From NCBI RefSeq assembly GCF_009914755.1, contig NC_060942.1: a stretch of DNA of 64,000 nucleotides. The stretch is one strand, 5' to 3'. Source of the stretch: the human T2T-CHM13v2.0 reference genome, Homo sapiens. Positions 1 to 56,574 of this stretch are shown here, in pieces; position 1 is the stretch's first letter, and each line of letters starts with the position of its first letter. The notes beneath the pieces were generated by a model. That model did not search any database and was not told where the DNA came from. It saw only the letters and a program-made list of their open reading frames with translations. A program made the position numbers and the translations under genes.

Positions 1-830
1 TTTAGAATTCTTGGTAATTGACAGATTTAAATTAATGTTGATGGTACTTGCATTCCAGTGCAGTTCTACTGAATCAAAATCATCAAGGATGGGCCAGAAT
101 TCCATATTTTTCAAAAAGTGTGTAGCCAGGGCTCATAACTACCCAATGAAGCGTTGAACTCAGGAGGACATTGTGACTTGTTACAGCTTTTGGATGGTGT
201 TGATGAGATTGATATAAATCATCTAACAGTTTTTAAGCACTAAGAAAATTCAATCACTTTTTGGTGTTACTGCTATGTATAAACAAAAGACGGCGGTATA
301 CAGGCACTTCACTTGAGCACGTGGTTGGGAGTGGGAGTGAAAATGCTTTATTTACCAAAAAAAGTGTTCTCAAGAAATTTAAAACAAAGATTTTGATAGC
401 CTTTATGCTACTTAGAAATCATATTTAACTTTTTTTAATGTCATTCCTATAAAAGCGTTTTCCCCCCATTTTGCTAGCCTGCTGCCATTATATGCAATTA
501 ATTTAACAAAACTGTATTCAAATGCTTTAATTCTATTTCTTTCCTTTCTTCATTATATTTTCAATTAGTATTACTTTATTATTAAATGTATCACTGATTA
601 AACTTTTCTCTTTCTGCAAATTCTTTCACAGTAAATTTTAGTAAAAATTATAGTAAAATAAATTTTATTGGTTGTAACTTTTACTATTTTCTAGTTCTAC
701 ATTTCTGCTGCTAATTAGGATGAGAAATGTTCCAGAGTAAATTCATTATGTAAATAAATACAAGTTTGTTTTTTTAAAAGATAGAAGATTTTCCTAGTTT
801 AACACATTGTAGGTGCTTAATAGATATTTA
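1..830 (+). repeat. Paralogous 3'-flank segment of a DYNAP-like duplication unit
   Basis: cattgtgacttgttacagcttttggatggtgttgatgagattgatataaatc (~169-220) aligns with cattctgacatgctatatcttactggtgggtttggtgaagttgatacaaac (~38666-38716). atagaagattttcctag...aggtgcttaatagatattt (781-829) aligns with atagtaagatttttctcag...aggtgcttaataaatatcc (~25969-26019). Aligned by eye. Confidence 0.6.
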
Positions 831-837
831 TTTAATG

Positions 838-1220
838 CAGTTGACCCTTGATCTCTGCTCAGTCTAAAATCTGCATATAACTTTTAACTCCTCAAAAATT
901 TAACAACTAATAACCTACTATTGACCAGAAGCATTTCCGATGACATAGTCAACCAACACATCTTTTGTATATGTATTACAGTCTGTATTCCTACAATAAA
1001 GTAAGCTAGATAAAAGAAATTATTAAGAAACTCAGAAGGAAAAGAAAGCACATTTACTATTTATTAAGTGGAAGTAGATCATCATAGACTTCTTCCTTCT
1101 TGTCTTCATGTTGAGTAGGCTAAGGAGGAGGAAGAGGAGGGTTTGGTCTTGCTTTCTCAGCGTGGTGGAGATAAGAAATTTGCAGCACAGTTCAATCCCA
1201 TGACATTCAAGGGTCAACTA
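838..1220. mobile_element. Tigger2a/MER28-like DNA transposon (TcMar-Tigger, non-autonomous)
   Basis: Terminal inverted repeats cagttgacccttga (838) and ttcaagggtcaact (~1206-1219); internal sequence resembles Tigger2a. Confidence 0.8.
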
Positions 1221-1479
1221 TGAGCATGTAAATGCATCATAGGAAGGCAATATGAGGTAAACTTTCAGAGCCAGGGACCTGGCCTCTATGTTTAACCACT
1301 ATATGTACCTGGCAGCCAGTAGATAATAAATATTTGTTCCACAAAAGAAAATAGTGATCATTGTAAGAATTTATTACCAAACTAAGATGACTAGAATTGG
1401 AATTACACTGTTACCTCAATTTTTAATCTACTTTTGTTTATGTTAATCTATTCCTATTAGTATTAGTATTAGTTTTCTA

Positions 1480-1830
1480 ATTTTTTTAGTTGAAGTACAA
1501 CATATTAGCAGAAAATGCACAAATCATAAGACACAACGCAATGAATTATCACAAAGTGAACACACCGACATGCAAATCAAGAAATAGAACATTATCAGCA
1601 CTTCAGAAACTCTCATGTGCCATTCCCCAATCACCACTTCGTTTTTCTTCCCTGCAAGGTAAACACTGTTCTGATTTCTAACACTGTTAATTACTTTGTC
1701 TGATTATGAACATAGTAGAAATGACATGGTATCACAGGAACTCTCTTCATCTGTCTCTTCATCTGGCTTCTTTGACTCAACCTTATATTTGTGAGATTCA
1801 TATATGTTTTTGCTTATACCAATGGTTCCT
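1480..1830 (-). mobile_element. Old L1M (L1ME-like) 3' fragment
   Basis: T-run followed by ttgaagtacaacatattagcagaaaatgcacaaatcataag...atgaattatcacaaagtgaacacacc, the typical antisense L1ME 3' end. Confidence 0.6.
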
Positions 1831-2316
1831 AGTGTTAGGTACTGATCCATGTGGCTATCCAAAGGATCCTGCATCATTTATTTAAAAGGCTATCCTTTCC
1901 CACTTCTCTGCTGTCTTACCTTGTCATAAATCACATCTGCCCTTTGACTCCTATTATCGTGAATTTGCTTGATTAATTTTCCCTGTGTGTAACCAAGGTC
2001 CCATTCCATGACACTCCTGCCACTCCTTCAGTGACACAGATGCCCACTTCATGCCACTCTGCTACAAAACCCAGCGTCATCTCTCATAACATCCGCTGTA
2101 ACCTGTTCAGCCTCTGTCCTCCTAGAGCCATTCTGGCCCTTTTCACTTTCAAAGCAGATGCCTGCTTTGCTCTGTCCCACCTAGTGGGCTTTAGGGCTGA
2201 ACAGTTCAGAAAGGGAAGGAAAAAGAAGAGAAAGAGAAAAAGTAAAAGCAAGAGCAGAAGGTTTTTATGTGGTTTGAGGTTATCTTATTTTCTCCATATG
2301 AAGTTGGCCTCAAAGT

Positions 2317-2795
2317 TGTCAACCTAAAGAAAGGAACTGAGGCAAAATTAAAATAAGTAGAGAGTTTATTTGGACCAAATTTGAGGACTGCAACCTGAGA
2401 GACACAGATTCAATTTTCCCTGAATATATGCTCTAATTAGCAGCTATCAAAAATGAGTTTTTAAAGGAAAAAAAGAAAGCAGTTCCTACATTGTTCATTA
2501 AAATAACAAACTATTGATTGGCTATAAGTTGCCTTCATGAGATATCTTTATTTAATCTTGTGAAGATACTGAATGTAGGTCACTCTCATGTGATGACATT
2601 TTAGGTAATTTATCAGCTAGTCTGGAAACTGTAAGGAAGAAAAGAAAGAAAAAATGCCTTTAACAATTGTCCCTGGGCGTGGATTTGATGGGGTAGGGGG
2701 AGGGTGTAGTGGGTGGTGGGGGATGGGAAGTCCTGTCCTGACTGAAGTCTCATATTCATGTTTCTCTGAACCTGATCAATTTTGCATACCTCACA
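2317..2795 (-). mobile_element. ERV1 solo LTR (MER39/MER34-group-like)
   Basis: TG...CA ends (tgtcaacctaaag...catacctcaca); near-TSD aagt/cagt; agagagtttatttggaccaaatttgagg motif of MER4-supergroup LTRs. Confidence 0.6.
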
Positions 2796-12627: not shown

Positions 12628-15600
12628 GAAAGGAATGCATGGGTTGTGATAAGGGATTGTGGAGACCAAGAATTTATCATGTAGATAAAGCCTCCAGATA
12701 GTAGGCTTCAGAGAGTAAATGTTTCTTATGACTTAAAGAGTCTCTTCTCAGTCATTCCAAAAGGAAGGAGGTTATAATGAGGCATGTCTAGCTGCTCCCC
12801 TTCCCATCATGGCCTGAACTAGTTTTTCAGATTAACTCTGGGATGCCTTTGCCAGGAGGAGAGGTCTATTCAGATGGTTGGGCAGCTTAAAATTTTATTT
12901 TTGGTTTGCAAAGCCATCCATTGAATTCTTAATATTATTTTATTTTCAGTTTTATAATTTAAATTTTTAAAATAGTTTTATGTTTCTGCCAAATTCACCT
13001 CCTTATCTTTAATTTCCTGAACATGTTAATCATAAAGATTTTCAAGTCATATCTGAAATTCCAGTACCTTTATTCCTGTGTGTCTGTTTTTTTGTATATT
13101 TTCTTTCTCTTGTTTTTCATACAAATGTTATTTTCTTACATGCATAGTAATTTTTGCCCAATATTTTTTCATGAAAAATTTATAGAAATAATTTGAGAAT
13201 CTTAGAAGGATTCTCTTTCTCCAGAAATGATCTACATCCACTTCTGGCAGGCAGCTGGGTTGGAGGTGGATCACCTTAATTCAATGAGGTGTGGAAATGA
13301 CTCAAACTTGAGGTTTCCTGCTTGTGAGGGTCAGTTTGTTTCCAATTCATCTCTACCCTAGTCAGAGACAGTTCTTTGGATCCCAAATAAATACCTGTAA
13401 TGTTTATCAAGACCCCTCCTTTTGCATGCAGAATTTAGAATAGAAGCTCTATGAGGGCAGGAATCTTTGCAATTTTATTCGTTGCTCAAAATTCTGGTCA
13501 GGACCTGGAAGATATAGGCATCCAATAAATATTTCTTGAATTAATAAATTGATAAACGAACAAGATATAAATTACAGTAACCAGGGGATATCAATTCCTA
13601 TAACAAACTGATGAAATTAAAAATCTGACAATACCTAATTTTTAGCAAGTAGGTATAAAACTGAGACCATTCCTACAAGAATGTACACAGGTAGTTTTAG
13701 AGCTTGATTTGGCAAAACGTGGCAATTGAAGATGCACATACACTTGAATCTAGCAAATCCATTCTTAGATATATAGTTTAGAAACATTTACATTCTGTTC
13801 AATGTAAAATTCTTTCTGTCTGTTCTTATATTTGAAATATTTCTTTATTTTTTAAGACAGCATGGTTGGGACATAGTAAGTATATAAATGAGTGAACAAT
13901 GAAGCTTGACAGGAGAGCAGGGGTTACCCCCCTCTTAAGGTCTTACAGGTCATTCTAAGTTTTAGTGATTTCCCCTCTGAAAAGGAAATGCCATTGAGGT
14001 GTTCTGAGCAGGATAGTGGCATATTTGCTTTCATTTTAGATCAACAGTGTGGATGCTGTGTGGAAAAGGGTTTGGGGGATTGTAGAAGTGGAAATAGGGA
14101 AGACAGTTGGGAGAGTTTGCAATGGATTTGGTAGGAAGGGAGGGTGGGTTGGGTGAAAAGACTCAACATAGTGCCTAACATGCAGTGAGTGATCAATACC
14201 ATGAATATTACTCTTATTGCTCAGACAATCCAGGGATATACAGTCATTTGTCCTTTACTGAGAATGGAACCCCAACCCTCAATATTTTATTCACATACAA
14301 TGACCATGCTGTTTTCTTGAAGTTATGTCTTATCTCTTCTAGATTTAAAATCAAAGTTCTCATCATCTGCTTTCTCACTTTGTACATTGATACCATTTCT
14401 CTACATTTTCACAACAGCCTTTCTGTATACCTGGCCCTATCTTTATAATTTCCTTCAATCTTATAGCTCCTCTGCATTGTCTTAGCTGCTCTCGCCTTCT
14501 CTAGTGCCCTTCTTCCTCACCTTTTCTAACCTGTGTACATCAGGACCTTTAAGATCTGATTCTCTTCTCCATGCTGTGACCAGCTTCTTTGCTCAGAGAT
14601 TATTTTCTTTGCTTTCTTACACGTTGAAAATCATCACTCCAAATATGTTTATTTCCAGCTCCATCCCTTGGGCCCTGCCTGAGCCTCTCTCAGGTCCTCA
14701 TGGCTGAATCCACCAAACCCCCTCACCTGTAACCTCTCTCTTGCCCCAGCGTCTGTCCTAGTCCCAGGCAGAACTGGGTCAAAGAAAATAATTATATTAG
14801 TGCTACTGCCCCTTATCTTCTGCTGTTGGGCAGGGGTGCTTCATACTCATCTTCTGCCACCTTCAACTCAGATTAGGTGGCAAATCCCATACTCTGACCA
14901 CTGTGACAGCACAGTCCTACCCTGACATTCTGCTCAAAACTTTCCTTGCTGTGGCCCTGAGTGGGGGCTGAATGTCCCAATGCTGATTCCTGATTCCTGC
15001 AGTCCCACTGTGATTGTAGGGTTAGAGCTGTCCCCAGCTCCCACAGGACCTCAGATTGGACAACTCCATCATGGCCCTGCAGCTTTTAATCCCTTTTCTG
15101 TGAGCTAGTTTGCAGCGTCTGATAATTAGAGGATCCCTTTTGTATTGCTGATGAATATCTGGTTGATTCCCACTCATTTCCCAAGAGTGCTTACAGCCAT
15201 ACTTTGTTCTTTTCAGGCCTCACCCCTGGAGACTAGGTCTTTTCCATAAACTTTACCTCCAAATGCTAAAGACCTGCTGACTCCTACAGACCTTAACTAA
15301 GACTGCAAGACCTGCAGAGCTCTTGATAGATTCATGATTCTTGTACTCGGTGAGAGGATGGGCTTCTCCAATGGGGATGCCTTAGTGCTGATCATCTGTT
15401 TAAATCTGGGTTGGAGATTGGAGTGTTTGCATGGATAGGAAGCCTGGCATCTTCAATTAGATTTGCTAAGCCATTGCTACTACTTACAGCCTGGATGCCT
15501 GCAACTCCTGCCCCATGGATGTTCTATTTCCAGCCCTCAACACTACCTCTGTTTTGCTGCCCTGTCTTGTGTTAATAACATCTAGGCATCCCTGATGCAT

Positions 15601-16467
15601 TTGAAGATAAGTCACCAGTATCTTTATTTTTTTTTCAGTGTTTTTGTTTGGTCCCTTTGAATGATTCACTTCTAAATGTCTTTCATTTCTAATTCACTTT
15701 TCCCATCTCCCCTCAATATACTTTTCAAATATCAACTTTATGGAGATATAATTCACATATCATAAAATTTGCCATTTTACAATGTATACTTTTTCTTCTC
15801 CTATTATTAACAAAGGTGTACAATAATTATAGAATGACCTTAATTAAATGATTGTTGGATAAGTGAGGTAACCTCAGATTCACACACTAAACTTAGCTTG
15901 TGAGTCATTGAGTGTTTCTTTAAGAGTTGATGTCTCATCAACACATGGGGATAATAATCTTTCCTTCTTAGAGGGGTTATAAGAATTAAATTATGAACAG
16001 AGAGGTGCACCTACTTGTTAAGCACATATCTTTTTATAGTGAATTTATTCATTCTGAATGAGGGAGTAAAAGACAATATTCTATTGATAAAAACACATTT
16101 GACATTTTTAATCTAATGTAATGTGGAATTAGACAAATTACTCATATGGGTCAAAATGTATTTTTCAGCTGCTTGTTTCCATTTTGAGTGGTGCTAATTG
16201 TTATTATTACAATTGTAATAGTACTGGCAAGTGTGGAAAATGCTGCCCAGGTGTTAACACCCATTTAGGAGGCTGCAGTAACATTTTGCAACAACAGATG
16301 GTGCTATTCATTTCCTTACCTCTTCCCCATTAAAAATAACTGACTTAGGTAAAAGTCAAATTGTAATTTTTTTTTGTAAGAAGTTTTTTTTTTTTTAAAA
16401 TTTGAGTAATGAGGGGGCATGTTTGTGGTGCTAAAATAAGAACTACCATTTAGAAGAATTTTTAAAA

Positions 16468-16954
16468 TTTCAACTTTTATTTTAGATACAGGGGATACAC
16501 GAGCAGGTTTGTTACACAGGAATATGGCACGATGCTGAGGTTTGGTGTATGGATCCTGTCACCCAGATAGTGGGCATAGTACCTGATAAATACTTTTTAA
16601 ACCCACAGCCCCTCCCTCTACCATATAGTAGTCCATTGTTTCCATATTTATGTTCGTGTGTGCTTAATGTTAGCCCCCACTTGTAAGTGAGAAAATGCAG
16701 CATTTGGTTTTCTGTTCCTGCATTAATTTTGCTTAAGATGATGGTCTCTAGCTCCATCCATGTTGCAGCAATGGACATGATTTCATTCTTTTTATGGCAG
16801 CATAATACTCCATGGTGTATATGTACCACATTTTCTTTATCCAGTCTATCATTGATGGACACCTGGGTTGATTCCATATCTTTGCTATTGTGAATCATGC
16901 AGTGGTGAACATATGAGTGCATGTGTAGAATAATAATTTGATTTATTTTGGGTA
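16468..16954 (-). mobile_element. L1 3' end fragment (old L1PA/L1PB-like)
   Basis: Antisense L1 3' UTR (caacttttattttagatacagggg...gtttgttacac) and ORF2 C-terminal remnant (ATWMELETIILSK). Confidence 0.85.
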
Positions 16955-17235
16955 TCTCTCTACAAAACAGAACCCGGGGCAATAAGTTAAAGTTACTGAG
17001 AAGACTTTGACTCAACATAGAGAAGAATGATCTAGTAGTGTAGGTCAACTCAAGAGAAAATGTTGTACTCTAGAAAATGAATGAGCTCCTGGTCATTGTA
17101 AGTTGACATAGAGTCTGGAAGATAGAGTTCACTTTTGTTCATTGGAGTTTGATCATATTTCTAGGTCCTTGTATCTAAAATATAATTGCATACATTTTTT
17201 AAAAGCAGACTATTATCCATAATATAATACAACTA

Positions 17236-17488
<253 letters not shown>

Positions 17489-20176: not shown

Positions 20177-20334
20177 ACAGTCCAGAGTCCAAACAACCAT
20201 GAAGCTCATAGTTCAGCATGTCAGTTTCTACTGATGTCACCAGTGGGGCTTGCACCAATATCAATGCTGTCTGCATCAGTCCAGGAACCCCTGAACCCTC
20301 AGAACTCCCAGACAGACTATTCCAGCAGGGCCAG
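20177..20334 (+). pseudogene. DYNAP-like pseudogene A, exon 2 homolog
   Basis: After the acceptor ccctgtag it reads TVQSPNNHEAHSSACQFL/DVTSGACTNINAVCISPGTPEPSELP, versus DYNAP PITHPNDQEAHSSICWCLPSNDITSDVSPNLTGVCVNPGILAHSRCL. Length is 158 vs 165 nt (7-nt deletion, frameshift). The donor is cag|ataatg instead of cag|gtaatg. Confidence 0.9.
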
Positions 20335-35728: not shown

Positions 35729-35769
35729 ATGGGTAACTGTTGTTCCATTTGGATATTGTGTTTATGTGA

Positions 35770-36206
<437 letters not shown>

Positions 36207-37740: not shown

Positions 37741-39112
37741 GTACTTTGATTAAGTTATCTTTGACTATTTCCATAGCTACTCGTAAGATAAATTTGAATC
37801 TACAATGCTATCACAGGTGATTTGTTTAGCTAACAGAAATACTTCAGCAGAGCCTGAAGCAATGGCCAACAATAACAATTTAGCCCATTTCCAAGCACCA
37901 GCGCCATGACATCAAATCCACCTCATTTGTCTTTTATACTTAACAGATCTCCATTTTATTAGAATTGTTATTTTATTTTGTAATAGTTTAATAATTTTTC
38001 TAAAATTTCAGATCATGTAATTTTCCTAGAAAAAAAAATCTAGGGACCACCCTCCAAGTAATTTGATAAAACCTCACAAGGAAATCTTTATTAACATGGT
38101 TGGTATTCATTACCAATGTTGTTTTTGTTTTTATAAAATTAAATGGTTCAGCAGTGGAAATGCAGTTTCTTACTGTTCAGAATATTTCATTTAGTATGAC
38201 AATTCTCTATGTATTGAATCACTATACCATGTATGTTTTAAGTACCACATTTTGTTTCCTTATGTGTAAAATTATCTTGTTTATATAAGTTTTCTTCAGA
38301 TTATTTTGCTGTTTAGCACCACAGTTGTTAGAATTAATTATTTGCTATTCTTTATGTAACCTTATAGTCACTTAGTTAAATGTCAGACATTTACTATATG
38401 TCTATCTCCCAAAATACTGAAGGAGATGCAGAAGAAATAACGATGCAAGATAATCACTAAAATAATTAACATGAACACGCTTTGTTTACATTTTCTGGAT
38501 ATCAAGGTTTTAATTGATTTTGATATTGCTTGGGTCTTCCCCAGGCCTACTGTACTATAACCAGCAGGAGTGCGGCAGGAATGTATGTTTATAAACACCT
38601 TCACAGCTGATTCTAATGCATAGGCAGGTTTAACAGTCATGGTCCAATCAGTAAACCAACGAAAGCATTCTGACATGCTATATCTTACTGGTGGGTTTGG
38701 TGAAGTTGATACAAACTATACAATCTTATTTTAAATCATGAAAAGAAAAAATCAATTTTTTAAGATAAGAGAAACATGAAACAATTAATACTAATCTTAA
38801 TCCAATCTATGAAGAAAGAATTATATATAAATACTGTCAGGTATATAATCACATGGGAAAAAATGTTTCACTTAGATAAAGGAAAAACTTATTTTCAAGC
38901 AAAAATTGAAAAAATATATTTCAGTATCTATTAAGCTAATAAGAATTAATTTTTAACAGTTCTTCCACTTAGCTCCACAAGAATATTTTTTAAAAAGTTC
39001 TGCCAGCAATTTTAATAAAAGATTAAAGTTGTACTGAAATCTTTTAACTTATATTTTATTAGTATAAATTGCTGTTTCTTTCTTACTAATACAAATGCAA
39101 TTGAAATGATCC

Positions 39113-39403: not shown

Positions 39404-42400
39404 GAAATGATCCAAGTCTTTTCCATCTGTAGTGTTATTGTATACAGACATTTGTGACTGTATTTTTCTATTTAAAAAGAAATATGTTTTCTAATTTGTA
39501 ATTTCTGTTATAAGTCAGAAATAAAAATATTCTGGAAACAAATTCAATTTTAGATTTTATAACAATAGTAACTTTCCCCCAGACTTACACTTAGTCAGTG
39601 GTCAATATGTATTTGTTTAATAAATGGTTGAGTGAATATTTCAGACCCTGGCACATCCAATCAATAAAATAATTAGCCAATCAGTCTATTAATCATCTAC
39701 TCTTTATTCAAAAAAAGGCTTTGAGCCTCTACCGTATACTAACCCGTCTACTTGGCACATGTTCTGTTCTTCAAAAATGCTGTTGTCCCTCTCCTTCCTC
39801 TCTTAGAATTCCATCTGTACTCCAGGACTCGGATCAATCCTGCCTCCTCCAAGCACTGCTTGTCTCTCTTTTGAGCTATTTCTTCTTTGACCTCATATAT
39901 CTTTTATTTTCCACCACATTCATTTTACTCTTAAGCTACCCTAGCTTTCATTATTCATGTTTTCCAGAGTCTTATCTTCCTACTGACATAATCATTGTTT
40001 TGGCAGTGACCTATATATTTTTTAACGTTTTTACAAAAATTTCCAATTCACAAACAAGTACTTATTATCCAGCTTCAACAACCATCAACGCTTTTTAATA
40101 CACGTTTCATTGATCATCCTATACCAAGTCAGATAACAGATATACAGTCTTCATCTTTGAGGGTCAATTTTTTGGAATCACTCTTTTTTTTCTGGGCACA
40201 CCTTAGGAAAACAGAAACCGGTTTAGGTAATGTAAGCAGAAAGGAATATAGTTATCAGATGCTGAATATAGCATCAGGAGTAAAATAAGGAAGACTATCT
40301 GTAGGTTTTCTCTGACCTGCTGGGTGGTCAGAGGGCTGCAGAAAACTCCTGCCAAGCCACATTTTCCTGCAGCTCCCAAACCAGAGACTGAAGGGTAGAG
40401 TGCAGCCTGTCACCATAAAAGCTACGTATTTATTATCTGTTGAAGCTTGTGTATGTCAGGAGCCCCCACTGCTGGGGTAAGAAGGGCTGGCATTTCCCTT
40501 TGAGTTTATAAATCTCATGGGAATACATCTCATTGGCAGAGCCTAGGTGTTCTGGGAACGTAGTTCCAGAATTTTAGCCCTTGGTGTAACAGGAGTACAG
40601 AGAAGGAACTAAGAATGAATGTTAACTGCCAATCCAAATGTCTACCTCATCTTCTAGAGGAAGAAAATCACTTACATCTTCATAGTTTACTGAGCAAAAG
40701 CCCATACATTACAATTATTGACAGAGTTATGATAACATGCTTAAACTCAATAATAACAAATAAAATAACAATAAAATTATACACTCTTTACCTACTTAAT
40801 TAGTACTATATTTAAATATTATCTTACTCAGCACTGCTAATCATGTGTTTGAACATGTGCTGTCAATATTTTTAGCAAATCACAAATTTTTCAGCAGTTT
40901 GGAAATCAGTTTGTATTAAGGGTGATAAAATACCTTTTGACTGTGTAATCCCACCTTCTGAGAACCGATCACCTGAAAATAGCTTGGAATACAGATAATA
41001 ATACCTTCCAGTATTTACATACAAGGCAGAAAAAAGAGTAAACAAAAATTACCATGACAAACATCTGTTGTGCAACTCAAAAACAAAAGAAAGACTAACA
41101 ACTCCAAATTACGTATAAGTAGGGTGAAAGAAAAAGTGAAAAAAAACAGAATATTTTACACCATACACATGAGCAAGGTTAAAAATTTGACAATACTAAG
41201 TATTTATGAAAAATGGGAATATTTTTATGGGAGTGAATATTCATACAACTTTGGAAACAATATTGGAAATATATGGTAAAGTTAACAAAATACACACCTG
41301 ATGATACAGAAATTTCACTTTTAATTATACATTTAGAAATATTTATTAAATATTTAAAACAAATATTTATTTAATATTTAATATTTATATTAATTAATAA
41401 TTAATATAAATATTTAATAAATATGCCTAAGAATGCATATTCAAGACATATTTTAGAGTATTCATAGCCTCATTGTTCATTATGCTAATAAAAGGGAACC
41501 CAACTCAACTTCCATTATTAGGACAATAGGTTAATAATTGAATGAAATACTATAAAACGTGAAAATGAATAAAATAGAGTTACAAGTGTCCATGTAATTG
41601 AGTTGTATAAATATAATCTGGGCAACTCCACACCTGCATTGTGAAAAAATACAGTATAATAGGATTCATAGAAATTTTAAACCATGTAAACTATACTATA
41701 TATTTTTGGAATATATTAAAACATTAAAACATCCATGGGAAATATAAACACCAATTAAGGAGAGTTGTGATACCTGGTAGGAAGAGAGAGAAGGGCAGGA
41801 GGGAACTGTGCTCAGGCCCAGGGACAGAGTAGCTCTCATTGCATGTAAAACAATGTTATCACTTAAACTGGGCAATAGGAATGTGGCTATTTAGCCATGG
41901 GAATGTGGCTATTTATACCTTTTTGTGTAGTTGCAATATTTCTTAATGCATTTTTTAAAAATGGTGTGGCTGGGGCATGGTATGTGATGTGTAAAATAGT
42001 GCAGGATGGGGATTCAGAGGCAGGCAGAAAGTTCAGAGACATGTGGGCCGTGAGAAGACTTTGACTTGGGGCAATGGATGCTATTTAGGGGTTTTGAGCA
42101 GGATGGTGATATAAACAGGCTAACATTTTGGAAACAGTATTCTGGCTACCTTGAGAGGAATGAATCAAAGAGGGGCAAACATGAAACTGGGAGGACCATC
42201 ATATGTGGTCCTCCTCAGGTGTGAGGGTGCAATCCTTATTTCTATTTCAACATCCAATGCCCAACAAGGGACATAAAGGGCAGTTAACAGTGTGACTAGA
42301 TTGTATTAAAATCTAAATTAATTTAGGGATATTTATAATATTTTCTTTTTTTTTTAACTAACACTGAGGCCATAAAACTAGTTATTCTACATCTAATTTT

Positions 42401-44955
42401 CATGTATTTTCTTGCTCCAAAGACTATTGTATTGTTCATTTTTCAATTCATATTTTAAAATTCACATCCTGACATTTCTTTCCTCTTTGCCTATGTAATC
42501 TAGTTAATACCGATTTTCATTCTAGCTTTTACTCTACCTCCAGACCACTCTTCCTACTTTCCCCCAGTGCCTTGCCTCTTTCTACCACTTCATGGTGGTC
42601 TTTGCTTCTCTCTTCTACAATTTCTCCTTCCTTCTCTCTGTCCATCCATGTGCACTGAGGACCTTTAAGATTTGGATGTGAACTTGCCTCTTCCAAACTG
42701 TCACCAGCTTCATCCCTCAAAGATCACTTCCTTTGCTTTCCTAATATTTTGAACACTGTCCCAGTGGTTAATTCTCACTTCCTCTCACTATCCTGCCTAC
42801 CTGCTGCTCCTCACCAGCTCCTCTGAGCTGAATTCATCACAGCCTTCTTCAGTCCTGCCTTAGTTCCCATCATTGTTCCATATCCAAACCTGACTCAGGT
42901 ACGAGTTCTATGAGCTGCTCCAGCTTCGTGAGCTCTCGTCTTTTACCACCCCATTCTCCATCCACAGTGAGGTGGATGAAAGGAGCCAAGTCCTAACTTT
43001 GAACTCTGAGACTGCTTGGTTTGCACTGCCCACTGTACACCGAGCCTGGCTACTGCAGCCCTGAACAGGGCTATGATGTTCCACTGCTGAGCCCTTGCAC
43101 CCCACTCCGTTCCTAGGTTGAGTTGACCCCAATCTCGGGTCCAGATCTGATAACCTAGTTATGGTTCTGGACCTTATGAATCCCAGTTTCTCTATTTGCC
43201 CCATCTTTTAAACCTGACATTTTCTGAGAGTTTCATTCTGAGCTCTGATTCTAATAAGCAGTCTATCTGCCACAATTTTTTCATGAGGCCTGGATCCCTG
43301 CCTTAATCTTTTTGTGTTCATCCCTGAAAACTGTAGTCCCACTGATGGATAAACCTCAGCTCCAAAAGCTGGGGCCTTGATGTTCACAAAAATAAGGCCC
43401 ACACAGCTGATTGCCGATCCTCATACTCTGTGAACGTCCTAACATTTGTCTCATGCTTGGACAGAACTTGGAGGGTCAGCAAGGATGATGAGACATGTCT
43501 CCACCCTGGGAGTTGCTAAATTCTGTGTTATTTAGAAACCTGAATTCCAGCCATCTCTGTTTTCATGGGCTGGTCTAATTCCAGGTGGCAGCACCACCCT
43601 GGCCATGCTTCCAGTAAATATCCATACCTCCCTGATGAATCTTGATACATGTCATCAGAATCTCTAAAGGTGCCAAAGTTGTATGATCTTGACAGTGAAT
43701 TCAAGCTCTGAGTTGTCTTTCCCTTTTCCCCCCATCCTTCTTAGGGCTCAGTGTGGTACACACTAGACACTAATAAATGGCCACAGACAAGAAACGAATG
43801 GTTATCTTGAGAGCCACACACTCTAATCTTGAGTTTGTAAAAGGTCACTGAAAGCATACATGTGTCATCAGAAAAGTGGGGATACTACTACTTAATTCTT
43901 GTAGGTATTACAAAGATTAGCTTTGAGCAGTGTGGTACACCAATTGGAAGGGACATAAACGTTTCTATAATGTCAGTAATACTATGGTAAAATCAAATCT
44001 ATGTCAGAGATTGCCTAAGGGTAGCACCTTTTCCTGTGATCCAGCAATTAAAGCTATTCTTTTCTTCTTTTTTCAAATATACTTTATTTTTTAGAGTAGT
44101 TTTAGATTCACATCAAAATTGAGTAAAAGGTACAGAGAGGAAAAATATGTTTTGATGGTCCCTGCCACATGCATAGCCTCCCCCATCATCAACATTTCCC
44201 ATCAGAATGGTATATTTTTTCACAATTGATGAAGCTATATTTTCTTCTCATTCACAGTTTTAAAATGGCAGTCATGAGAGTCAGTTTACTATTTCAAGTC
44301 TTTTATGAAATAGTTTTCCAGCACGATGAGAATAAGGAGGGACGTAACTGTCTTTAAAAAATTGTAAAATTTTACACAAATGAGTGTGATAGCGCACAAC
44401 TGGAGTTCCTGCTACTTGGGATGCGGAGGTGGGAGGGTTGCTTGAGCCCAGGAGTTCATGTCCAGCCTGGGCAACACAGCGAGGTCCTGGCTATAAAAAA
44501 AATGTAAAGTTTCTACAAACCCATCATACCTCATGTGAAAAGCTTGAGTTAAATATGTTTCATAATTCAAATTTTTTTAAATTTTATGAAATATGGTACA
44601 TATATTGCATATTACACAACACGTGTTAGTAGCCTGAAACACACATTAATATTTTTTGTAATTGAACATATAAATAACCATGCTAAGATTATTAAAGACC
44701 CAAAATGTTCTTGTTTATATTAATTTTTACTGCCAAATAAATTTATGCCAAACATACAAATTAATTTTCAGTTTGCAAAGCCTTTTGGATTTCTGAAATT
44801 GTGTATCAGGGATTGTATATCCATATTCTGAAGAAAAAATAGTTTATTTTGGGTCTCTCCATATAGGAGGATCAGGGTGTAAGTCAGCCAGAGAGACAAG
44901 GAAAATTTTGGATCTATAGGAGAAAGAACTTTCAAACAGCAAAAGTCACCCAAAA

Positions 44956-44974
44956 ATGGAATACCAACTTCTAG
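44956..44974 (+). CDS. DYNAP: Candidate alternative upstream coding exon of DYNAP (MEYQLL, phase 1)
   Basis: aaaATGGaataccaacttctag|GTAAGT has a good Kozak context and a consensus donor. Splicing to ttgcag|at at 48323 restores GAT (Asp) in the DYNAP frame. Confidence 0.5.
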
Positions 44975-45314
44975 GTAAGTCATGAATTCCTAGTCGCTGT
45001 GCTCAAACACAGGTGAATTATACAGTTGCCTTTTATTCTGTAGAAGTTGTTATATATTTATCATTTATATTTATCATTATGGTCCTTTCTCTAATTCCAA
45101 CATACAAAAAGCTAAAAGAGAACATTCTCTTTGATTGAACAAAAATAGTAACACTTCAAACAAATTTGAAAGTTAAAATCAAAAGTCAAGCTTTCGATAA
45201 AGAAAGAATAGACTGTAAGCAGAGGTCTTGTCTGTCTTGGTTGCTACTAATTTGATATCCAGTTTTCAGACATGCCTGTGATACATTAGGCACTCAATAA
45301 ACAGTTGGGAATAA

Positions 45315-45612
45315 TTTTTTTTTTTTTTTTTTGAGACGGAGTCTTGCTCTGTCACCCAAGCTGGAGTGTGATAGCAGATCTCGGCTCACTGCAACCTCTG
45401 CCTCCTGGGTTCAAGCAATTCTTCTGCCCCAGCCTCCTGAGTAGCTGAGATTACAGGCATCCGTCATCATGCCCGGCTAATTTTTGTATTTTTTTAGAGA
45501 CAGGGTTTCATTATGTTGGCCAGGCTGATCTTGAACTCCTGACCTCAGGTGATTTGCCCACCTCAGCCTCCCAAAGTGCTGGGATTACAGGTGTGAGCCA
45601 CCGCGCCCGGCC
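45315..45612 (-). mobile_element. AluSx-like element
   Basis: Full antisense dimer; TSD cagttgggaataa. Confidence 0.94.
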
Positions 45613-47095
45613 TCCAGTTGGGAATAAATTAATGGAAGACTGTGCTTTGTCAGTATAACCATATTTAAAATTTATAAGTAAACTTTACATTTGGAATTGG
45701 AAAATTCAGTGATGTAAATCAAAACATGTTTTCCTCCTGAAGTTTCTATTTTGAATAGGACTAATTTTTCTAATCCAATTTTATTGCTTAAATACTGTTT
45801 CATTACTTTTGATTCAGTAAAGGAATACTTGGTATAAGTATTGGCTCAGCTTTGTAAAAAATACAATAAAGAACATGCTAATTGTGTTGTGAAAAAAATA
45901 TATGAATTTACAGAATGTTTCAGTTTTTATTCTTACTTTTAATGATTGGTTCAAATTTCTTTGGTAATTTTGACAGGGCAGTTTGGAAATGTATTGTTCA
46001 GTTTCTATTTTTTTCACAAGGATCTTTCATGCTTTTTGGGTTGCATGTCAGCATTTTACTTAGGCTTTGAAATTCTGTGTCTGAAAAAAGATGAAATATA
46101 ATAATCCCTTTCCCTAAAATGTCTAAGATCACATGGCCGAAGCTGTCATGTTGGCTCTCAGTTTATCAGTAGACCAAAGAAATAATAATCAGAGCATATC
46201 AAAATTTCAGGTAAGAAAATTTTTGAGTAAGATGATTTTAAAAAATCAACTTTGACCTAGGCTTTGAGACAACAGCCAATTCACTTCTTTATTGGATGAC
46301 TGAAAAACAGCCTCCTCCCCTTGCCGCCTTAGAGTGGAAAAAATGGCCAGCTATCAGAGTTCTCTCAAACACATGTCAGCCAACAAGACTTTCAGATTTC
46401 TTTTTGGTTATAAATCCTGCTCAGAACAAAGATCCTTTATTGGCGACTCTGAGAAGGTAATGAGAGGTATCCATGCTGTCTGTCATGCTAACAATCCAGG
46501 TGTGCTCTGCTTTTTCTGTTAAGGTTTAGATTGAGGCATTCAAAGAATTGTTCATAATACATGGTGAAGAAATATTCTTTGCAAAATAAAAATCTGACTT
46601 TCACATGGTATATTTAGCTATAGAACAATGTGTTGTCTCATTTTTATGTTACTATTCCTTTTGATTTTAAATTTTAAAATTTTCTCCCAAATTTTGTGGC
46701 TGAGTCATGTAACTGCTTGGCCGGTTAGAGATGGTGAGGGTGAGACTCCAGTGACAAGAATAATCTTCCACTCTTTATGCCATTGATGTAATGTGTGGAT
46801 GCCATCAATAGTAATGGAGTTTCACTTCCACTGTGGCTATGTGGCTCTACTGCCAAATGAAATGTTTTTGCAGAATAAAATTGTAGTAATATTTTAAAAA
46901 TATACAATTAATATATATTATTGGTTTAATTATATTCTTCTGATTTTCAAATGAATCAAAAAATCAATCAAAAAGTCTTTCAAAAGTCATTTTTAATATT
47001 ATTGACACCTTCAACCCATGTTGGTCCCTTGTACCCCATGGCTGTTTGCTTTGCTTCAAGAAGAGTAAATCTTTATGTTTTTCTTTGTGTTTCAC

Positions 47096-48312: not shown

Positions 48313-48447
48313 ATGGTTGCAGATATAAAGGGCAATGAACAAATTGAAAAATATTCTTGGAGAGAAGCTTGTGATACTGGCAGCTCAAGAATGGACAGAA
48401 AGCATGGAAAATACATATTGAACGTTGAGCACTCTGAAAACCAGCCG
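48313..48447 (+). CDS. DYNAP: Dynactin-associated protein, coding exon 1 (second ATG at 48391 is probably the ancestral start)
   Basis: Translates MVADIKGNEQIEKYSWREACDTGSSRMDRKHGKYILNVEHSENQP; donor ccg|gtgagt, phase 0. Confidence 0.92.
48324..48329 (+). promoter_or_regulatory. TATA box of the DYNAP proximal promoter
   Basis: TATAAAG lies 67 nt upstream of ATG 48391 and is conserved in paralog B (35601, 71 nt upstream of its ATG). Confidence 0.65.
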
Positions 48448-52046: not shown

Positions 52047-52211
52047 CCAATCACACATCCAAATGACCAAGAGGCTCACAGTTCCATATGCTGGTGTCTA
52101 CCTTCAAATGATATAACCAGTGATGTCTCTCCCAACTTAACTGGGGTCTGCGTGAACCCAGGAATCCTTGCACATTCAAGATGTCTACAGTCAGAATCCT
52201 GTAACACACAG
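52047..52211 (+). CDS. DYNAP: DYNAP coding exon 2 (165 nt, phase 0/0)
   Basis: ctttgtag|cca...cag|gtaatg; PITHPNDQEAHSSICWCLPSNDITSDVSPNLTGVCVNPGILAHSRCLQSESCNTQ. Confidence 0.95.
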
Positions 52212-54339: not shown

Positions 54340-54682
54340 GGTAGGGGTGAGAGAGGAAAGAATAAGAGGAATACAGAGGATTTTTTAGGGTAGTGAGACT
54401 GCTCTGCATGATACTGTAATGGTAAATACATGTCATCATATAGTTGTCCAAACCCATAGAGTGTACACCAACAAGAGTGAACCCTAAAGTAATCTGATAA
54501 TGGTATATCATTGTAGGTTCATTAATTGTAACAAATGTTCTACTCTGATGGGAGAAGTTGACAACTGGTGAGGCTGAACATGTGTGAGGGCAGGAGGGAT
54601 GTGGGAAATCTCTGTATTTCCTGCTTAGTTTTGCTGTCAACCTAAAACTGCTCTGAAAATAAAGTCTGTTAAAAAGAAAAAA
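54340..54682 (+). mobile_element. L1MC/MD-like 3' end
   Basis: gtccaaacccatagagtgtacaccaacaagagtgaaccctaa...aaactgctctgaaaataaagtc plus A-tail. Confidence 0.75.
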
Positions 54683-54920
54683 GACAAATGGAAAATAGAA
54701 TAAGAGAAGATGAGATTTTGCAAATTTGTCTTTCTTCTAATGTAAGGGACAGCAGACAATTATTTCCACCTGCATGAAAACATGGACTTCAAGCCCATCT
54801 TTCAGAGACACATAGTGACTCAAATGATGTTAACCCAATAAGTTATAAGTAATATAAAAGAGATGATAAATTACAAGCATTTTTGTTTTTCATTGCTGAT
54901 ATTTTTATATACATGCTTAG

Positions 54921-55253
54921 GTAAAAGAATATTGCCGCAATGACTGGTCTATGTGGAAAGTCTTCCTGGCTTGTCTCTTAGCCTGTGTGATAATGACAGC
55001 AATTGGAGTACTTATAATATGCTTGGTGAATAACAAAGGATCGGCCAATTCCTCCATTGTTATCCAGCTATCCACAAATGATGGAGAGTGTGTGACTGTC
55101 AAACCTGGAACACCCTCTCCTGCTTGTCCACCTACAATGACCACCACTTCAACTGTACCTGCAAGTACAGCCACTGAATCTACAACTTCAACAGCTACAG
55201 CTGCCACCACTTCCACAGAACCTATAACTGTTGCACCTACCGATCATTTATAA
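54921..55253 (+). CDS. DYNAP: DYNAP coding exon 3 (CLLAC transmembrane helix plus short Thr/Ser-rich tail)
   Basis: gcttag|gtaaaagaatat gives VKEYCRNDWSMWKVFLACLLACVIMTAIGVLIICLVNN...VAPTDHL*. The three exons sum to 45+55+110 = 210 aa, matching the DYNAP protein as I recall it. Confidence 0.96.
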   Translation, partial: VKEYCRNDWSMWKVFLACLLACVIMTAIGVLIICLVNNKGSANSSIVIQLSTNDGECVTVKPGTPSPACPPTMTTTSTVPASTATESTTSTATAATTSTEPITVAPTDHL

Positions 55254-55258
55254 TTTGA

Positions 55259-55611
55259 ACAGCCATAGCCATCACTTCAACTGAAACTTCAACCTCTACC
55301 ACTTCAACTCAGTTTGCAACTATAATAGCTACTCCTATCACTTCAAGTGGAATCATGGCTGCAGTCACTTTAACAGACTCTATAACCGTTACAACTTCAA
55401 CAAAATCAAGTCCTACTTCAACTTAAACTTACTTGACAACTCAAATAATCACCACTTCGACCATCTCTTTGACTGAATCAACAACTACATTCCCTTCAAC
55501 TGAATCTGCAACCACTTCCACTTAACCTATAACTACTGTAACTTCTACTTAGCCTACAGTAACAATGCTCATCACTCTTTTCCAACAATGTATAATCTCC
55601 ACCTATTCATC
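55259..55611 (+). other. Fossil mucin-stalk reading frame in the DYNAP 3' UTR
   Basis: In a shifted frame it reads TAIAITSTETSTSTTSTQFATIIATPITSSGIMAAVTLTDSITVTTSTKSSPTST*TYLTTQIITTSTISLTESTTTFPSTESATTST*PITTVTST*PTVT..., and resumes at 56374 after the LTR. Confidence 0.85.
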
Positions 55612-56369
55612 TGAGGACTAAGCTCTGATTTTTCATCTTGCCCAAATTCCTTTCTAAGGGGTATGGGGAGTCATGCCCTACAAACCATAAATTCTCATCA
55701 GATGGGTTTTATTTAACCCTGTATATTGTGACTTACTTTCTAATCTGACTCTGGCATAACAAGGGAAAAAAATCAAAATGTTTTACCCCAAAATATATTT
55801 CCTTGCCATACCTTGAAATTGTCCTGCAAAGTCTCTTGTGGAGAAACTCCACATTCTGTAGAGAATATCCTTTCCCCTTTGTTTTCCTTCCTTTCTTTCC
55901 AGATCCAGGAGATAATCAACTAAGAGCCAGGCACCCTTTTAGGTCTAATAAGAAACACTTTACAACCTGCTCTCTCTCTGAAGTCTGCTTTCTGAGAGAT
56001 TCCTCTGCACAATAAAACTTGATCTCCACAATCCTTTATCTTAACCTGAACATTCCTTTCCATGGATCTCAGGTCTTCAGATAAACTAAACCAATTGTCA
56101 ACCAGAACATGTTTAAATTTACCTATAGCCTGGAAGCCCCAACTTTGAGTTGTCCTGCCTTTCTGAACCAAGCCAATGTATTTCTTAAATGTATTTGATT
56201 GATGTCTCATGTCTCCCTAAAAATATATAAAACCAAACTGTACCTTAGCCACTTTGGACACATGTTCTCAGGACCTCCTGAGGGCTATGTCATGAGCCAT
56301 GGTCACTCATATTTGGCTCAGAATTAATCTCTTAAAATATTTTACAGAGTTTGACTCTTTTTGTCAACA
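55612..56369 (+). mobile_element. MER4-group solo LTR (MER4D/E-like)
   Basis: tgaggactaagctctg...tttgtcaaca; 4-bp TSD catc (55608-55611 and 56370-56373); AATAAA at 56011. Confidence 0.88.
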
Positions 56370-56574
56370 CATCCGAACCTGCAACTACAAATGCCACCAT
56401 TACCACTTAAAACTTGATAGAACTAGCATCAGTCATCAAAATAACCTGTTCTATATTAAGTTAACTTTTAGTTATCACCAGTAATACTAGCCTACAACTA
56501 CTCGCCACACTGGCTCTTCCCCAAAATTGAAATTGTACAATATGTGAGTCTAATTCTTGCTAACATAACATTAT

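What the first reader, a model, noticed from the sequence alone, without database searches (positions are those of the whole stretch)
1..56500. The window is a decayed head-to-tail array of DYNAP-like type II transmembrane mucin genes
Seen in the sequence: three same-strand units share exons and kilobases of colinear non-coding flank. Unit A has upstream ~14-19 kb, exon 2 at 20177, exon 3 at 24084 and 3' flank to ~26.0 kb. Unit B has exon 1 at 35672, a stalk remnant at ~37.4 kb and 3' flank to ~39.6 kb. The third unit is intact DYNAP. All three carry a Thr/Ser-rich S-T-E-P-type stalk sequence, and A and DYNAP keep the CLL(A/S)C TM helix. Inference: DYNAP is the last survivor of a birth-and-death cluster of N-in/C-out membrane mucins. 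That architecture suggests an epithelial surface or glycocalyx role rather than only dynactin binding. The ~50% amino-acid divergence and shared ancient-repeat-like flanks point to an early mammalian duplication. I cannot check whether these pseudogenes are already annotated.
Basis: partly seen in the sequence, partly recalled or inferred. Interest (0 to 1): 0.85.

Follow-up and report, generated by a model that had tools for sequence, protein, structure and literature searches.

The report
Tandem array of DYNAP-family mucin genes
The window holds DYNAP and two dead copies of it from an old head-to-tail gene array, but DYNAP is not the last survivor, because a fourth copy just upstream still has an open 1,227-codon reading frame for a mucin-like membrane protein.

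Summary
After repeat masking, units A (13.8-26.0 kb, DYNAPP2) and B (35.4-38.6 kb, DYNAPP3) align colinearly and on the same strand with DYNAP (41.9-55.6 kb), through exons, introns and flanks (57-69% nucleotide identity). Both are unprocessed pseudogenes that RefSeq already names.

The family is Pfam PF15675 (CLLAC). DYNAP's type II topology, glycosylated T/S region and mucin-domain prediction are already published.

The duplications are old: the tree puts them before the boreoeutherian radiation. The "membrane mucin" reading holds. "Last survivor" is wrong. A fourth unit 5-17 kb upstream of the window (LOC124908007, also labelled pseudogene DYNAPP1) has three open exons and canonical splice sites. 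It gives a conceptual 1,227-aa protein: short tail, CLLAC helix, and a 1,117-aa ectodomain that is 60% Ser+Thr, built from 111-bp repeats.

Human DYNAP is itself stalk-truncated; its 3'UTR holds decayed stalk sequence. Unit A's exon 3 keeps a 237-codon frame with one internal stop, so it probably died late.

Whether the upstream gene is expressed, or intact in other human assemblies, was not testable here.

The parts
760..837 (+). 3' flank of the upstream unit (LOC124908007/DYNAPP1) reaching into the window
   Evidence: Aligns with unit A's 3' flank at 25948-26027 (74%, E 2e-6). The neighbouring upstream piece at -582..-498 aligns with unit B's 3' flank at 38233-38315.
13813..18293 (+). Unit A (DYNAPP2) upstream region, colinear with the region upstream of DYNAP exon 1
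   Evidence: Six ordered blocks align with 41912-46215 at 58-68% identity. No exon 1 was found in 12001-20200.
20177..20334 (+). Unit A exon 2, disabled
   Evidence: 72% nucleotide identity to the upstream unit's exon 2. It has a 7-bp deletion (frameshift) and its donor GT has become AT; the acceptor AG is kept.
22402..22826 (+). Unit A intron 2 segment, colinear with DYNAP intron 2
   Evidence: Aligns with 52700-53151 (59%, E 4e-15).
24084..24794 (+). Unit A exon 3: CLLAC TM helix plus a long Thr/Ser/Ile-rich stalk
   Evidence: The acceptor AG is kept. The frame runs 237 codons with one internal stop (TAA at 24294) and ends at TAA 24792. The other two frames have 16 and 17 stops. Shuffles average 13.4 stops, and 0 of 5000 had 1 or fewer. 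CLLAC scores 46.8 bits.
24853..26027 (+). Unit A 3' flank shared with unit B and the upstream unit
   Evidence: 24853-25165 and 25378-25558 align with 37815-38112 and 38412-38595. 25948-26027 aligns with 760-837.
26571..32285 (-). Antisense LINE-1 between units A and B (an insertion, not part of the gene family)
   Evidence: The ORF at 28039-30234(-) matches RVT_1 (2e-44) and an endonuclease domain. The ORF at 31107-31727(-) matches L1 ORF1 domains. The hub table masks this stretch as repeat.
35406..35776 (+). Unit B (DYNAPP3) exon 1 (35672-35728) with its flanks
   Evidence: 69% identity to 48140-48494 (E 2e-46). The exon 1 peptide has 11 of 19 residues identical to DYNAP's. The donor GT has become AT.
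36452..37352 (+). Unit B intron 1 remnants
   Evidence: Three ordered blocks align with 48796-49898.
37478..37663 (+). Unit B stalk remnant; exon 2 and the TM part of exon 3 are missing
   Evidence: tblastn to the DYNAP stalk gives E 0.018, with a stop inside. Nucleotides 37523-37592 align with 55277-55353, and the chain offset jumps from 12.5 to 17.7 kb. The genome scan finds no CLLAC match here.
37815..38595 (+). Unit B 3' flank
   Evidence: Aligns with unit A's 3' flank and with the upstream unit's 3' flank.
41912..46646 (+). DYNAP unit upstream region, shared with unit A and the upstream unit
   Evidence: Colinear blocks.
48313..48447 (+). DYNAP coding exon 1: the RefSeq start is at 48391, and the start of the published 210-aa isoform a is at 48313
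   Evidence: Translation; the donor is GT.
52047..52211 (+). DYNAP exon 2 (cytoplasmic tail)
   Evidence: splice sites.
54921..55253 (+). DYNAP exon 3 coding part: CLLAC TM helix, N-glycan sequon and a short T/S-rich stalk
   Evidence: CLLAC scores 64.5 bits at residues 8-37.
55259..55618 (+). Decayed continuation of the stalk in DYNAP's 3'UTR, in a shifted frame
   Evidence: The shifted-frame translation is 35% Thr and 18% Ser, with 3 stops in 120 codons. The nucleotides align colinearly with the coding stalks of unit A (to 24700) and of the upstream unit. A match to the lemur stalk is weak (12 of 18 identical, E 0.001).

Best explanation
The window carries the three distal units of a head-to-tail array of CLLAC-family (DYNAP-family, Pfam PF15675) genes on chr18. 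Ancient tandem duplication made the array, and it has since evolved by birth and death.

The ancestral gene had three coding exons. They encode a hydrophilic N-terminal tail of about 87 aa with no signal peptide, a CLLAC transmembrane helix acting as a signal anchor, a juxtamembrane N-glycan sequon, and a Thr/Ser-rich stalk of very variable length carried on the last exon.

Fate of the human units:
- The upstream unit (LOC124908007/DYNAPP1, window places -17347..-4815) keeps an open 1,227-codon frame with about 28 in-frame 37-aa repeats.
- Unit A (DYNAPP2) lost exon 1, has a 7-bp frameshift and a dead donor in exon 2, and has one nonsense codon in a long exon 3 that is otherwise open.
- Unit B (DYNAPP3) keeps only exon 1 (dead donor), part of intron 1, a stalk remnant and the 3' flank.
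- DYNAP survives with a shortened stalk.

Inferred mechanism. These are type II membrane proteins whose O-glycosylated stalk projects from the surface of stratified squamous mucosa as a mucin-like brush. The tail, shown for dynAP only, binds dynactin components.

Shown here: the array, the lesions, the open frames, and the age relative to mammalian orders. Taken from papers, for dynAP only: topology, probable glycosylation, dynactin binding and oesophageal expression. Inferred: that the upstream gene is expressed and works as a mucin.
For: Colinear same-strand chains remain after masking (16 of 31 HSPs lie in the three inter-unit chains; one search adds the upstream unit). The minus-strand control gave 10 HSPs against 31.

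The whole-genome scan with PF15675 found 4 matches, all on the + strand of chr18 between 54.618 and 54.801 Mb (150 of 209 candidates were scored).

Upstream unit:
- Its exon 3 has 1153 codons with 0 stops. The other frames have 33 and 90. 1000 shuffles averaged 37 with a minimum of 18.
- Splice sites are GT/AG at all four junctions, and the start codon has A at -3 and G at +4.
- TRF finds a 111-bp unit in 33.5 copies at 81% matches, plus 7.2 further copies.
- The ectodomain has 667 Ser+Thr in 1117 residues.

Tree of 37 rows:
- The DYNAP-type clade has 30 rows (support 93/93).
- The upstream type groups human with a whale and a bat (95/90).
- Unit A is sister to that group (99/97).

A-type sequences exist in other species: P0056 at 61% identity, P0058 at 64% and P0060 at 71%.

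Two read-through gene models (P0046 from a whale, and P0056) join upstream-type and A-type exons in the same order as in human.

Non-coding K2P distances between units are 0.45-0.68.

Literature: type II topology, a T/S region whose deletion restores normal gel migration, dynactin binding and oesophageal expression (PMC8329785; PMC4540312). The mucinome table row for DYNAP ends in 7.29, and the paper calls a score above 2 high confidence (PMC9209528).
Against: - I saw no transcript or protein evidence for the upstream gene. HGNC/RefSeq also label it a pseudogene (DYNAPP1).
- In the upstream unit the stretch equivalent to DYNAP isoform a's N-terminal extension has a stop.
- Its repeat array is cut by a frame change and continues for about 1.4 kb beyond the stop, so it has itself lost part of the array.
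- Proline is low for a classical PTS domain: 39 of 1117 residues.
- No human protein of 634-2018 aa matching its TM region was in the protein database (1 hit among 711 candidates, and that one is not named as human).
- TRF finds no tandem array in the stalks of DYNAP or unit A (0 rows each).
- dN/dS between paralogs is 0.56-0.76. That is weak constraint, and synonymous sites are near saturation.
- Unit A's place in the tree rests on a long branch (0.72).
- Synteny in other mammals was not checked directly.
Confidence: 0.8

Rival explanations
1. One reading: DYNAP is the sole surviving gene. Every other unit, including the upstream one, is a dead pseudogene, and the upstream open frame is a relic kept open by its biased repeat composition or by recent repeat homogenisation.
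For: The upstream unit carries the official pseudogene name DYNAPP1 (hub table). It has a stop in the region equivalent to isoform a's N-terminal extension. Its array is truncated by a frame change. Repeat arrays can be homogenised, which removes stops without selection on the protein. I found no paper naming LOC124908007.
Against: Exon 3 has 0 stops in 1153 codons, against 33 and 90 in the other frames and a minimum of 18 in 1000 shuffles. The non-repetitive exons 1 and 2 are open too, and all four splice sites are canonical. Other mammals' family members start at the downstream Met, which the upstream unit keeps. RefSeq also carries a protein-coding model that ends exactly at this stop (hub table).
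Confidence: 0.3
2. Units A and B are two halves of one former gene, torn apart by the LINE-1 insertion or by a rearrangement, so the window holds two units and not three.
For: They are complementary: A has exons 2 and 3 but no exon 1, and B has exon 1 but no exon 2 or TM part. A 5.7-kb LINE-1 lies between them.
Against: Both carry their own stalk sequence (24.2-24.8 kb and 37.48-37.66 kb) and their own copy of the same 3' flank (24853-25558 with 37815-38595). B's exon 1 lies downstream of A's exon 3, not upstream. A has its own copy of the region upstream of exon 1 (13.8-18.3 kb).
Confidence: 0.05
3. The similarities come from shared interspersed repeats and low-complexity Thr-codon runs, not from duplication of a gene unit.
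For: The window is full of Alu-like copies. The stalk is low in complexity, and identities are only 57-69%.
Against: After masking, the blocks are in the same order on the same strand. They include non-repetitive exons 1 and 2, the TM helix and introns. Pfam CLLAC matches lie above the cut-off. The minus strand gives a third as many HSPs, and none of them form a chain.
Confidence: 0.02
4. The stalk is only a spacer or sorting signal. The family works through its cytoplasmic tail (dynactin binding, Akt signalling, cell migration) and not as a surface mucin.
For: Published dynAP work links the protein to dynamitin and p150Glued, CCT-delta localisation, cell migration and transformation. Isoforms that differ only in the tail differ in transforming activity (PMC8329785, abstract and introduction). 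Human DYNAP functions in those assays with only about 74 ectodomain residues.
Against: A 1,117-aa ectodomain with 667 Ser+Thr in the paralog, and long stalks in cat, horse and lemur DYNAP-type proteins, are costly for a mere spacer. DYNAP co-expresses with MUC21 and squamous differentiation genes. The two roles do not exclude each other.
Confidence: 0.25

Closest known systems
dynAP / DYNAP (C18orf26), Pfam PF15675 CLLAC family
   Same: All units share DYNAP's exon plan, CLLAC helix and T/S-rich C-terminal region. DYNAP itself is unit 4 of the array. Its type II topology and probable O-glycosylation are published.
   Different: The upstream paralog's ectodomain is about 15 times longer (1,117 against 74 residues) and is a true tandem-repeat array. 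Units A and B are dead. None of my searches turned up a paper on the family's evolution or on its long members.
Transmembrane mucins with simple repeat ectodomains (MUC21, MUC22, MUC1; features recalled, not tested here)
   Same: A single large exon of Thr/Ser-rich tandem repeats, a single TM helix and a short cytoplasmic tail. DYNAP co-expresses with MUC21 in squamous mucosa.
   Different: Canonical membrane mucins are type I, with a signal peptide and often SEA or EGF modules (recalled). Here there is no signal peptide, and the TM helix lies upstream of the repeats. That implies, and for dynAP is shown as, type II. Pfam finds no domain other than CLLAC, and there is no sequence relationship to the MUC genes.
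Lineage-specific gain and loss of mucin repeats ('mucinization', Pajic et al. 2022, PMC9417175; passages read)
   Same: Exonic PTS-type repeats whose copy number changes turn mucin character on or off among orthologs and paralogs. DYNAP-type stalks give proteins from 177 aa to about 293 aa across species.
   Different: That paper deals with secreted proteins, mainly at the SCPP locus. DYNAP does not occur in its main text (0 occurrences). In human DYNAP the direction appears to be loss of stalk.
Unprocessed pseudogenes in tandem gene clusters (the general birth-and-death model)
   Same: DYNAPP2 and DYNAPP3 keep intron positions and flanks and carry frameshift, nonsense, splice-site and deletion lesions.
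   Different: DYNAPP2's exon 3 is unusually well preserved for the age of the duplication (1 internal stop in 237 codons). That points to a late death.

Membership tests
CLLAC / DYNAP family (Pfam PF15675) | CLLAC transmembrane-domain match above Pfam's gathering score (25 bits) | tested here: met
   DYNAP 64.5 bits, unit A 46.8 bits and the upstream unit 57.9-60.7 bits. The genome scan found 4 matches over the cut-off. Unit B has none because its TM part is deleted.
CLLAC / DYNAP family (Pfam PF15675) | Three coding exons with conserved boundaries: exon 1 of 19 codons ending ..NQP, exon 2 of about 55 codons, and exon 3 carrying the TM helix and stalk | tested here: met
   Complete with GT/AG sites in DYNAP and the upstream unit. 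Partial in unit A (exons 2 and 3 only) and in unit B (exon 1 plus a stalk remnant).
CLLAC / DYNAP family (Pfam PF15675) | Type II topology (N-terminus inside, C-terminus outside) | not testable with these tools
   Stated for dynAP in PMC8329785 and PMC4540312 (passages). For the paralogs it is only inferred, from the lack of an N-terminal hydrophobic signal and from the conserved N-x-S sequon just after the helix.
Mucin-domain glycoproteins | A long Ser/Thr(/Pro)-rich tandem-repeat domain encoded in one exon | tested here: met
   The upstream unit has a 111-bp repeat in 33.5 + 7.2 copies; its ectodomain is 60% Ser+Thr and 3.5% Pro. Unit A read through has 77 Ser+Thr in 200 residues, and DYNAP has 29 in 74. 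TRF finds no array in A or DYNAP.
Mucin-domain glycoproteins | Dense O-GalNAc glycosylation of that domain | not testable with these tools
   [quoted passage not shown] The mucinome table row ends in 7.29. A 2022 glycosylation study was seen only as a table entry in a review. There are no data for the upstream paralog.
Canonical type I transmembrane mucins (MUC1, 3, 4, 12, 13, 16, 17 type) | Signal peptide, repeats N-terminal to the TM helix, and SEA or NIDO/AMOP/vWD or EGF modules (feature list recalled) | tested here: not met
   Pfam finds only CLLAC in the 1153-aa exon 3, and nothing in exon 2. The TM helix lies upstream of the repeats. The unit may work like a membrane mucin but is not a member of those families.
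Unprocessed (duplicated) pseudogene | Retains introns and flanks of the parent unit and carries disabling lesions | tested here: met
   Unit A: intron 2 and upstream blocks, a 7-bp deletion, donor GT to AT, and TAA at 24294. Unit B: intron 1 blocks, donor GT to AT, and a deletion of about 5.4 kb.
Processed pseudogene | Intronless copy of the mRNA | tested here: not met
   In unit A, exons 2 and 3 are 3.7 kb apart with intron homology between them. In unit B, intron 1 homology follows exon 1.

The most novel reading that the evidence does not exclude
LOC124908007/DYNAPP1, 5 kb upstream of the window, is an expressed and functional human gene for a type II transmembrane mucin of about 1,227 aa. 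That orientation is not represented among the named human membrane mucins. Its pseudogene label would then rest on a stop in a stretch that is coding only in the primate-specific long isoform of DYNAP. DYNAP would be its 'de-mucinised' paralog, and the locus would be a natural series from full mucin to stub to dead gene.
Probability: 0.4. Interest if true: 0.75.

Novelty: new member of a known kind. Interest (0 to 1): 0.55.

Why it matters
[quoted passage not shown] Placing it in an old family of type II, mucin-stalked surface proteins reframes that question. One family member still has a very large open frame next door.

If the neighbour is expressed, the human list of membrane mucins is incomplete. 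Assays on oesophageal and oral mucosa should then look for it. Its 111-bp repeat array would be a candidate length-variable locus that older assemblies may have represented poorly.

If it is not expressed, the locus is still a clean, datable example of birth and death and of stalk gain and loss in a small gene family.

Tried and rejected
- Tandem Repeats Finder on the DYNAP stalk (54800-55800) and on the unit A stalk (24000-25000) gave 0 rows each. Only the upstream unit has a recognisable array.
- I searched 12001-20200 for exon 1 of unit A with three exon 1 queries. Scores of 12-13 were no better than shuffled queries at 13-17.
- Aligning the shifted-frame translation of DYNAP's 3'UTR to the lemur stalk gave only 12 of 18 identical residues, E 0.001. 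It is weak, and I use it only as a minor point.
- dN/dS between human paralogs was 0.56-0.76 with dS 0.52-0.64. It is too saturated, and mixes in pseudogene decay, so it says little about selection.
- PMC12519442 lists DYNAPP1 and DYNAPP2 once each in the search listing. The terms are not in the held first 300,000 characters, so I could not read the direction of any expression change.
- Searches for 'type II transmembrane mucin' and its variants returned only papers on the reagent 'type II mucin'.
- In the representative search, P0065 and P0068 are unrelated repeat proteins and were set aside.
- For the tree I used 34 of the 53 database proteins. Short isoforms and partial sequences were not included. 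P0040 and P0048 were dropped because my motif pattern did not find their helix.
- Of the 28 hits, I read 9; 5 others were already known from earlier searches.
- I rejected the processed-pseudogene reading and the repeats-only reading; see the rival explanations and the membership table.

Full report

The annotated DYNAP exons translate as given. A plain self-comparison of the window is dominated by Alu-like copies of about 300 bp on both strands. It already shows two same-strand, non-Alu matches at the claimed exon 3 and exon 1 positions.

I then masked multi-copy segments and the hub's repeat list and searched the plus strand sensitively. That gave 31 HSPs at E<0.01:
- Nine form a strictly ordered chain between unit A and DYNAP (13813-24700 with 41912-55548). 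The chain covers the upstream region, exon 2, intron 2, exon 3 and the start of the 3'UTR.
- Five form a chain between unit B and DYNAP (35406-37592 with 48140-55353).
- Two join the 3' flanks of A and B.
- Four are repeats inside the stalks.
- Eleven are unrelated.

The minus strand gave 10 HSPs (2,010 bp) against 31 (6,923 bp) on the plus strand.

Pfam's CLLAC model (PF15675) matches DYNAP and unit A above its cut-off.

**2. State of each unit**

*Unit A (RefSeq DYNAPP2, annotated 20190..24411).*
- Exon 2 is 72% identical in nucleotides to the intact paralog. It has a 7-bp deletion, and its donor GT has become AT.
- Exon 3 keeps its acceptor. Its frame runs 237 codons from 24084 to the TAA at 24792, with a single internal stop (TAA at 24294). 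The other frames have 16 and 17 stops. Shuffles average 13.4 stops, and 0 of 5000 had 1 or fewer.
- I found no exon 1.

For a copy this old, such a well-kept frame suggests that A coded for a long-stalk protein for most of its history.

*Unit B (DYNAPP3, annotated only at 35638..35727).*
- It keeps exon 1 (11 of 19 residues identical to DYNAP) with a dead donor.
- It also keeps pieces of intron 1, a stalk remnant at 37478-37663 and a 3' flank.
- The chain offset jumps by about 5.4 kb, so exon 2 and the helix-encoding part of exon 3 are gone. The genome scan finds no CLLAC match there.

An antisense LINE-1 fills 26.5-32.3 kb between A and B.

*DYNAP.* Past its stop codon the sequence stays Thr/Ser-rich in a shifted frame (35% Thr, 18% Ser; 3 stops in 120 codons). 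It still aligns with the coding stalks of the paralogs.

DYNAP-type proteins of cat (293 aa), horse (277 aa) and ring-tailed lemur (271 aa) have much longer TSTEP-type stalks. So the human stalk has been shortened. A direct match of the 3'UTR translation to the lemur stalk is weak.

**3. What lies just outside the window**

I searched the window's own genome with DYNAP exon 3 and got four matches, all on the + strand of chr18. One lies at window places -8297..-4815, inside an open frame of 1160 codons. It ends exactly where the hub table ends LOC124908007.

I fetched 30 kb upstream. This unit has:
- exon 1, with the family's usual Met start and 17 of 19 residues identical to DYNAP;
- exon 2, with 55 open codons;
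- exon 3, with GT/AG at every junction.

The conceptual protein has 1,227 residues. Exon 3 has 0 stops in 1153 codons, against 33 and 90 in the other frames. 1000 shuffles averaged 37 with a minimum of 18.

After the CLLAC helix comes an ectodomain of 1,117 residues with 667 Ser+Thr, 39 Pro and 7 N-glycan sequons. It is built from a 111-bp (37-aa) repeat, in 33.5 copies at 81% matches plus 7.2 more. The open frame ends inside the array. The array then continues out of frame for about 130 codons, and afterwards in frame with three stops.

The upstream unit's flanks, introns and exons align colinearly with DYNAP, A and B. Its 3' flank reaches window 760-837.

So the array has four units in the order upstream unit, A, B, DYNAP. 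DYNAP is not the last survivor.

The stretch of the upstream unit that matches DYNAP isoform a's 26-residue N-terminal extension contains a stop. In my inference, that may be why it was labelled a pseudogene. The family members I read from non-primate mammals start at the downstream Met.

**4. Family and age**

All 19 hits of the first protein search and all 34 of the 'longer' search carry PF15675. They come from primates, rodents, rabbit, bats, carnivores, horse, camelid, pigs and a whale, and many are named 'dynactin-associated protein-like'.

I built a maximum-likelihood tree of 37 rows: 3 human conceptual sequences and 34 database proteins, over 136 columns.
- A DYNAP-type clade of 30 rows (93/93) roughly follows the species tree.
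- A second clade groups the human upstream unit with an unnamed close relative (99/96), another unnamed sequence, a whale and a bat (95/90).
- Human unit A is sister to that group (99/97). Its branch is long (0.72), so its place is less sure.

Both main clades span Laurasiatheria and Euarchontoglires. The duplications therefore predate the boreoeutherian ancestor.

Non-coding K2P distances between units are 0.45-0.68. By neutral rates that I recall, not compute, this fits roughly 100 million years or more.

An exhaustive search with unit A's first 70 residues found 28 clusters at E<=0.001. They include A-type sequences from other species: P0056 at 61% identity with an open stalk, P0058 at 64% and P0060 at 71%. 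P0060 ends at the position of the human TAA. That is a lead that the stop may be older than the human lineage; I could not follow it.

In the human genome the CLLAC model matches only four places, all at this locus (150 of 209 candidates scored).

**5. How it most likely works**

From papers:
- dynAP is a type II single-pass protein with its C-terminus outside the cell.
- It binds dynamitin and p150Glued and transforms NIH3T3 cells.
- It runs at 42 kDa against a calculated 22.5 kDa (PMC4540312, passages).
- A mutant lacking the T/S region migrates normally (PMC8329785, passage).
- DYNAP is in the supplementary tables of 'Revealing the human mucinome'. Its row ends in 7.29, and the paper calls a score above 2 high confidence (PMC9209528, supplement hits and main-text passages).
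- It correlates at R>0.7 with MUC21, KRT4, KRT13, CRNN and SPRR3 in TCGA data (PMC13056625, one figure legend).

Putting this together with the sequence, I read the family as signal-anchored surface proteins of squamous mucosa. A glycosylated stalk of evolvable length forms a mucin-like brush, and a short tail couples to the dynactin machinery. The topology and glycosylation of the paralogs, and the expression of the upstream gene, are inferred and not shown.

**6. Comparison with what is known, and novelty**

The array's pseudogenes, the Pfam family, dynAP's topology and its mucin-domain prediction are all on record.

Not found in print: any account of the family's evolution or of its long members. 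LOC124908007 had 0 occurrences among the listed papers, and DYNAPP1 appears only in one gene list. The 'mucinization' paper does not mention DYNAP in its main text.

The upstream protein works like a membrane mucin, but it is not a member of the canonical type I mucin families. Pfam finds no SEA or EGF-type module, and the helix lies upstream of the repeats.

I file the finding as a new member of a known kind. Interest is moderate and rests mostly on the upstream gene.

**7. Limits**

- I could not see transcripts, other human assemblies or syntenic maps of other mammals.
- The supplement of the TCGA paper that lists DYNAPP1 and DYNAPP2, and the text of that paper beyond the first 300,000 characters, were not readable.
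- The original 2010 dynAP paper and the 2022 glycosylation paper were seen only as citations.

Noticed in passing
L008:5341-9150 (chr18:54,618,341-54,622,150, about 128 kb upstream of the window): A fourth CLLAC helix exon is followed by exons 66-77% identical to the cupin-domain part of the unnamed 801-aa protein P0022. This looks like a different kind of CLLAC-anchored gene, with a bicupin ectodomain. In human the first exon changes frame near 5441-5451, so it may be broken.
   Followed up: partly
window 32713-32840: DYNAP's alternative 5' exon (32729-32840 in the hub table) lies upstream of DYNAPP3 and overlaps a segment with three or more self-matches in the window. The long DYNAP transcripts therefore start in a repeat-like element and carry DYNAPP3 in their first intron.
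   Followed up: no
upstream unit, window places about -4815 to -3400 (L007:5186-6600): The 111-bp repeat array goes on beyond the stop. It runs about 130 codons out of frame and then returns to the Thr-rich frame with three stops. That looks like two frame changes, and the array length and frame may differ between people.
   Followed up: partly
window 24294 and protein P0060: The unnamed A-type protein P0060 (71% identical over 53 residues) ends at the residue that matches the human TAA at 24294. The stop may be shared with another species.
   Followed up: no
window 48313-48390: RefSeq's selected transcript starts at the Met at 48391, giving 184 aa. The published 210-aa isoform a starts at an in-frame Met at 48313. 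The equivalent stretch is closed by stops in unit B and in the upstream unit.
   Followed up: partly
window 5480-6060, 12181-12910 and 55938-56295 (minus); upstream -13948..-13053: An interspersed repeat of about 600 bp has copies 72-83% alike. One copy lies inverted inside DYNAP's 3'UTR. The family was not identified.
   Followed up: no
window 57305-57540 and 58758-58995: A young direct duplication, 92-94% identical and 1.45 kb apart, lies downstream of DYNAP.
   Followed up: no
window 28039-30234 (minus): The antisense LINE-1 between units A and B still has a 731-codon open stretch of ORF2 with reverse-transcriptase and endonuclease matches.
   Followed up: partly
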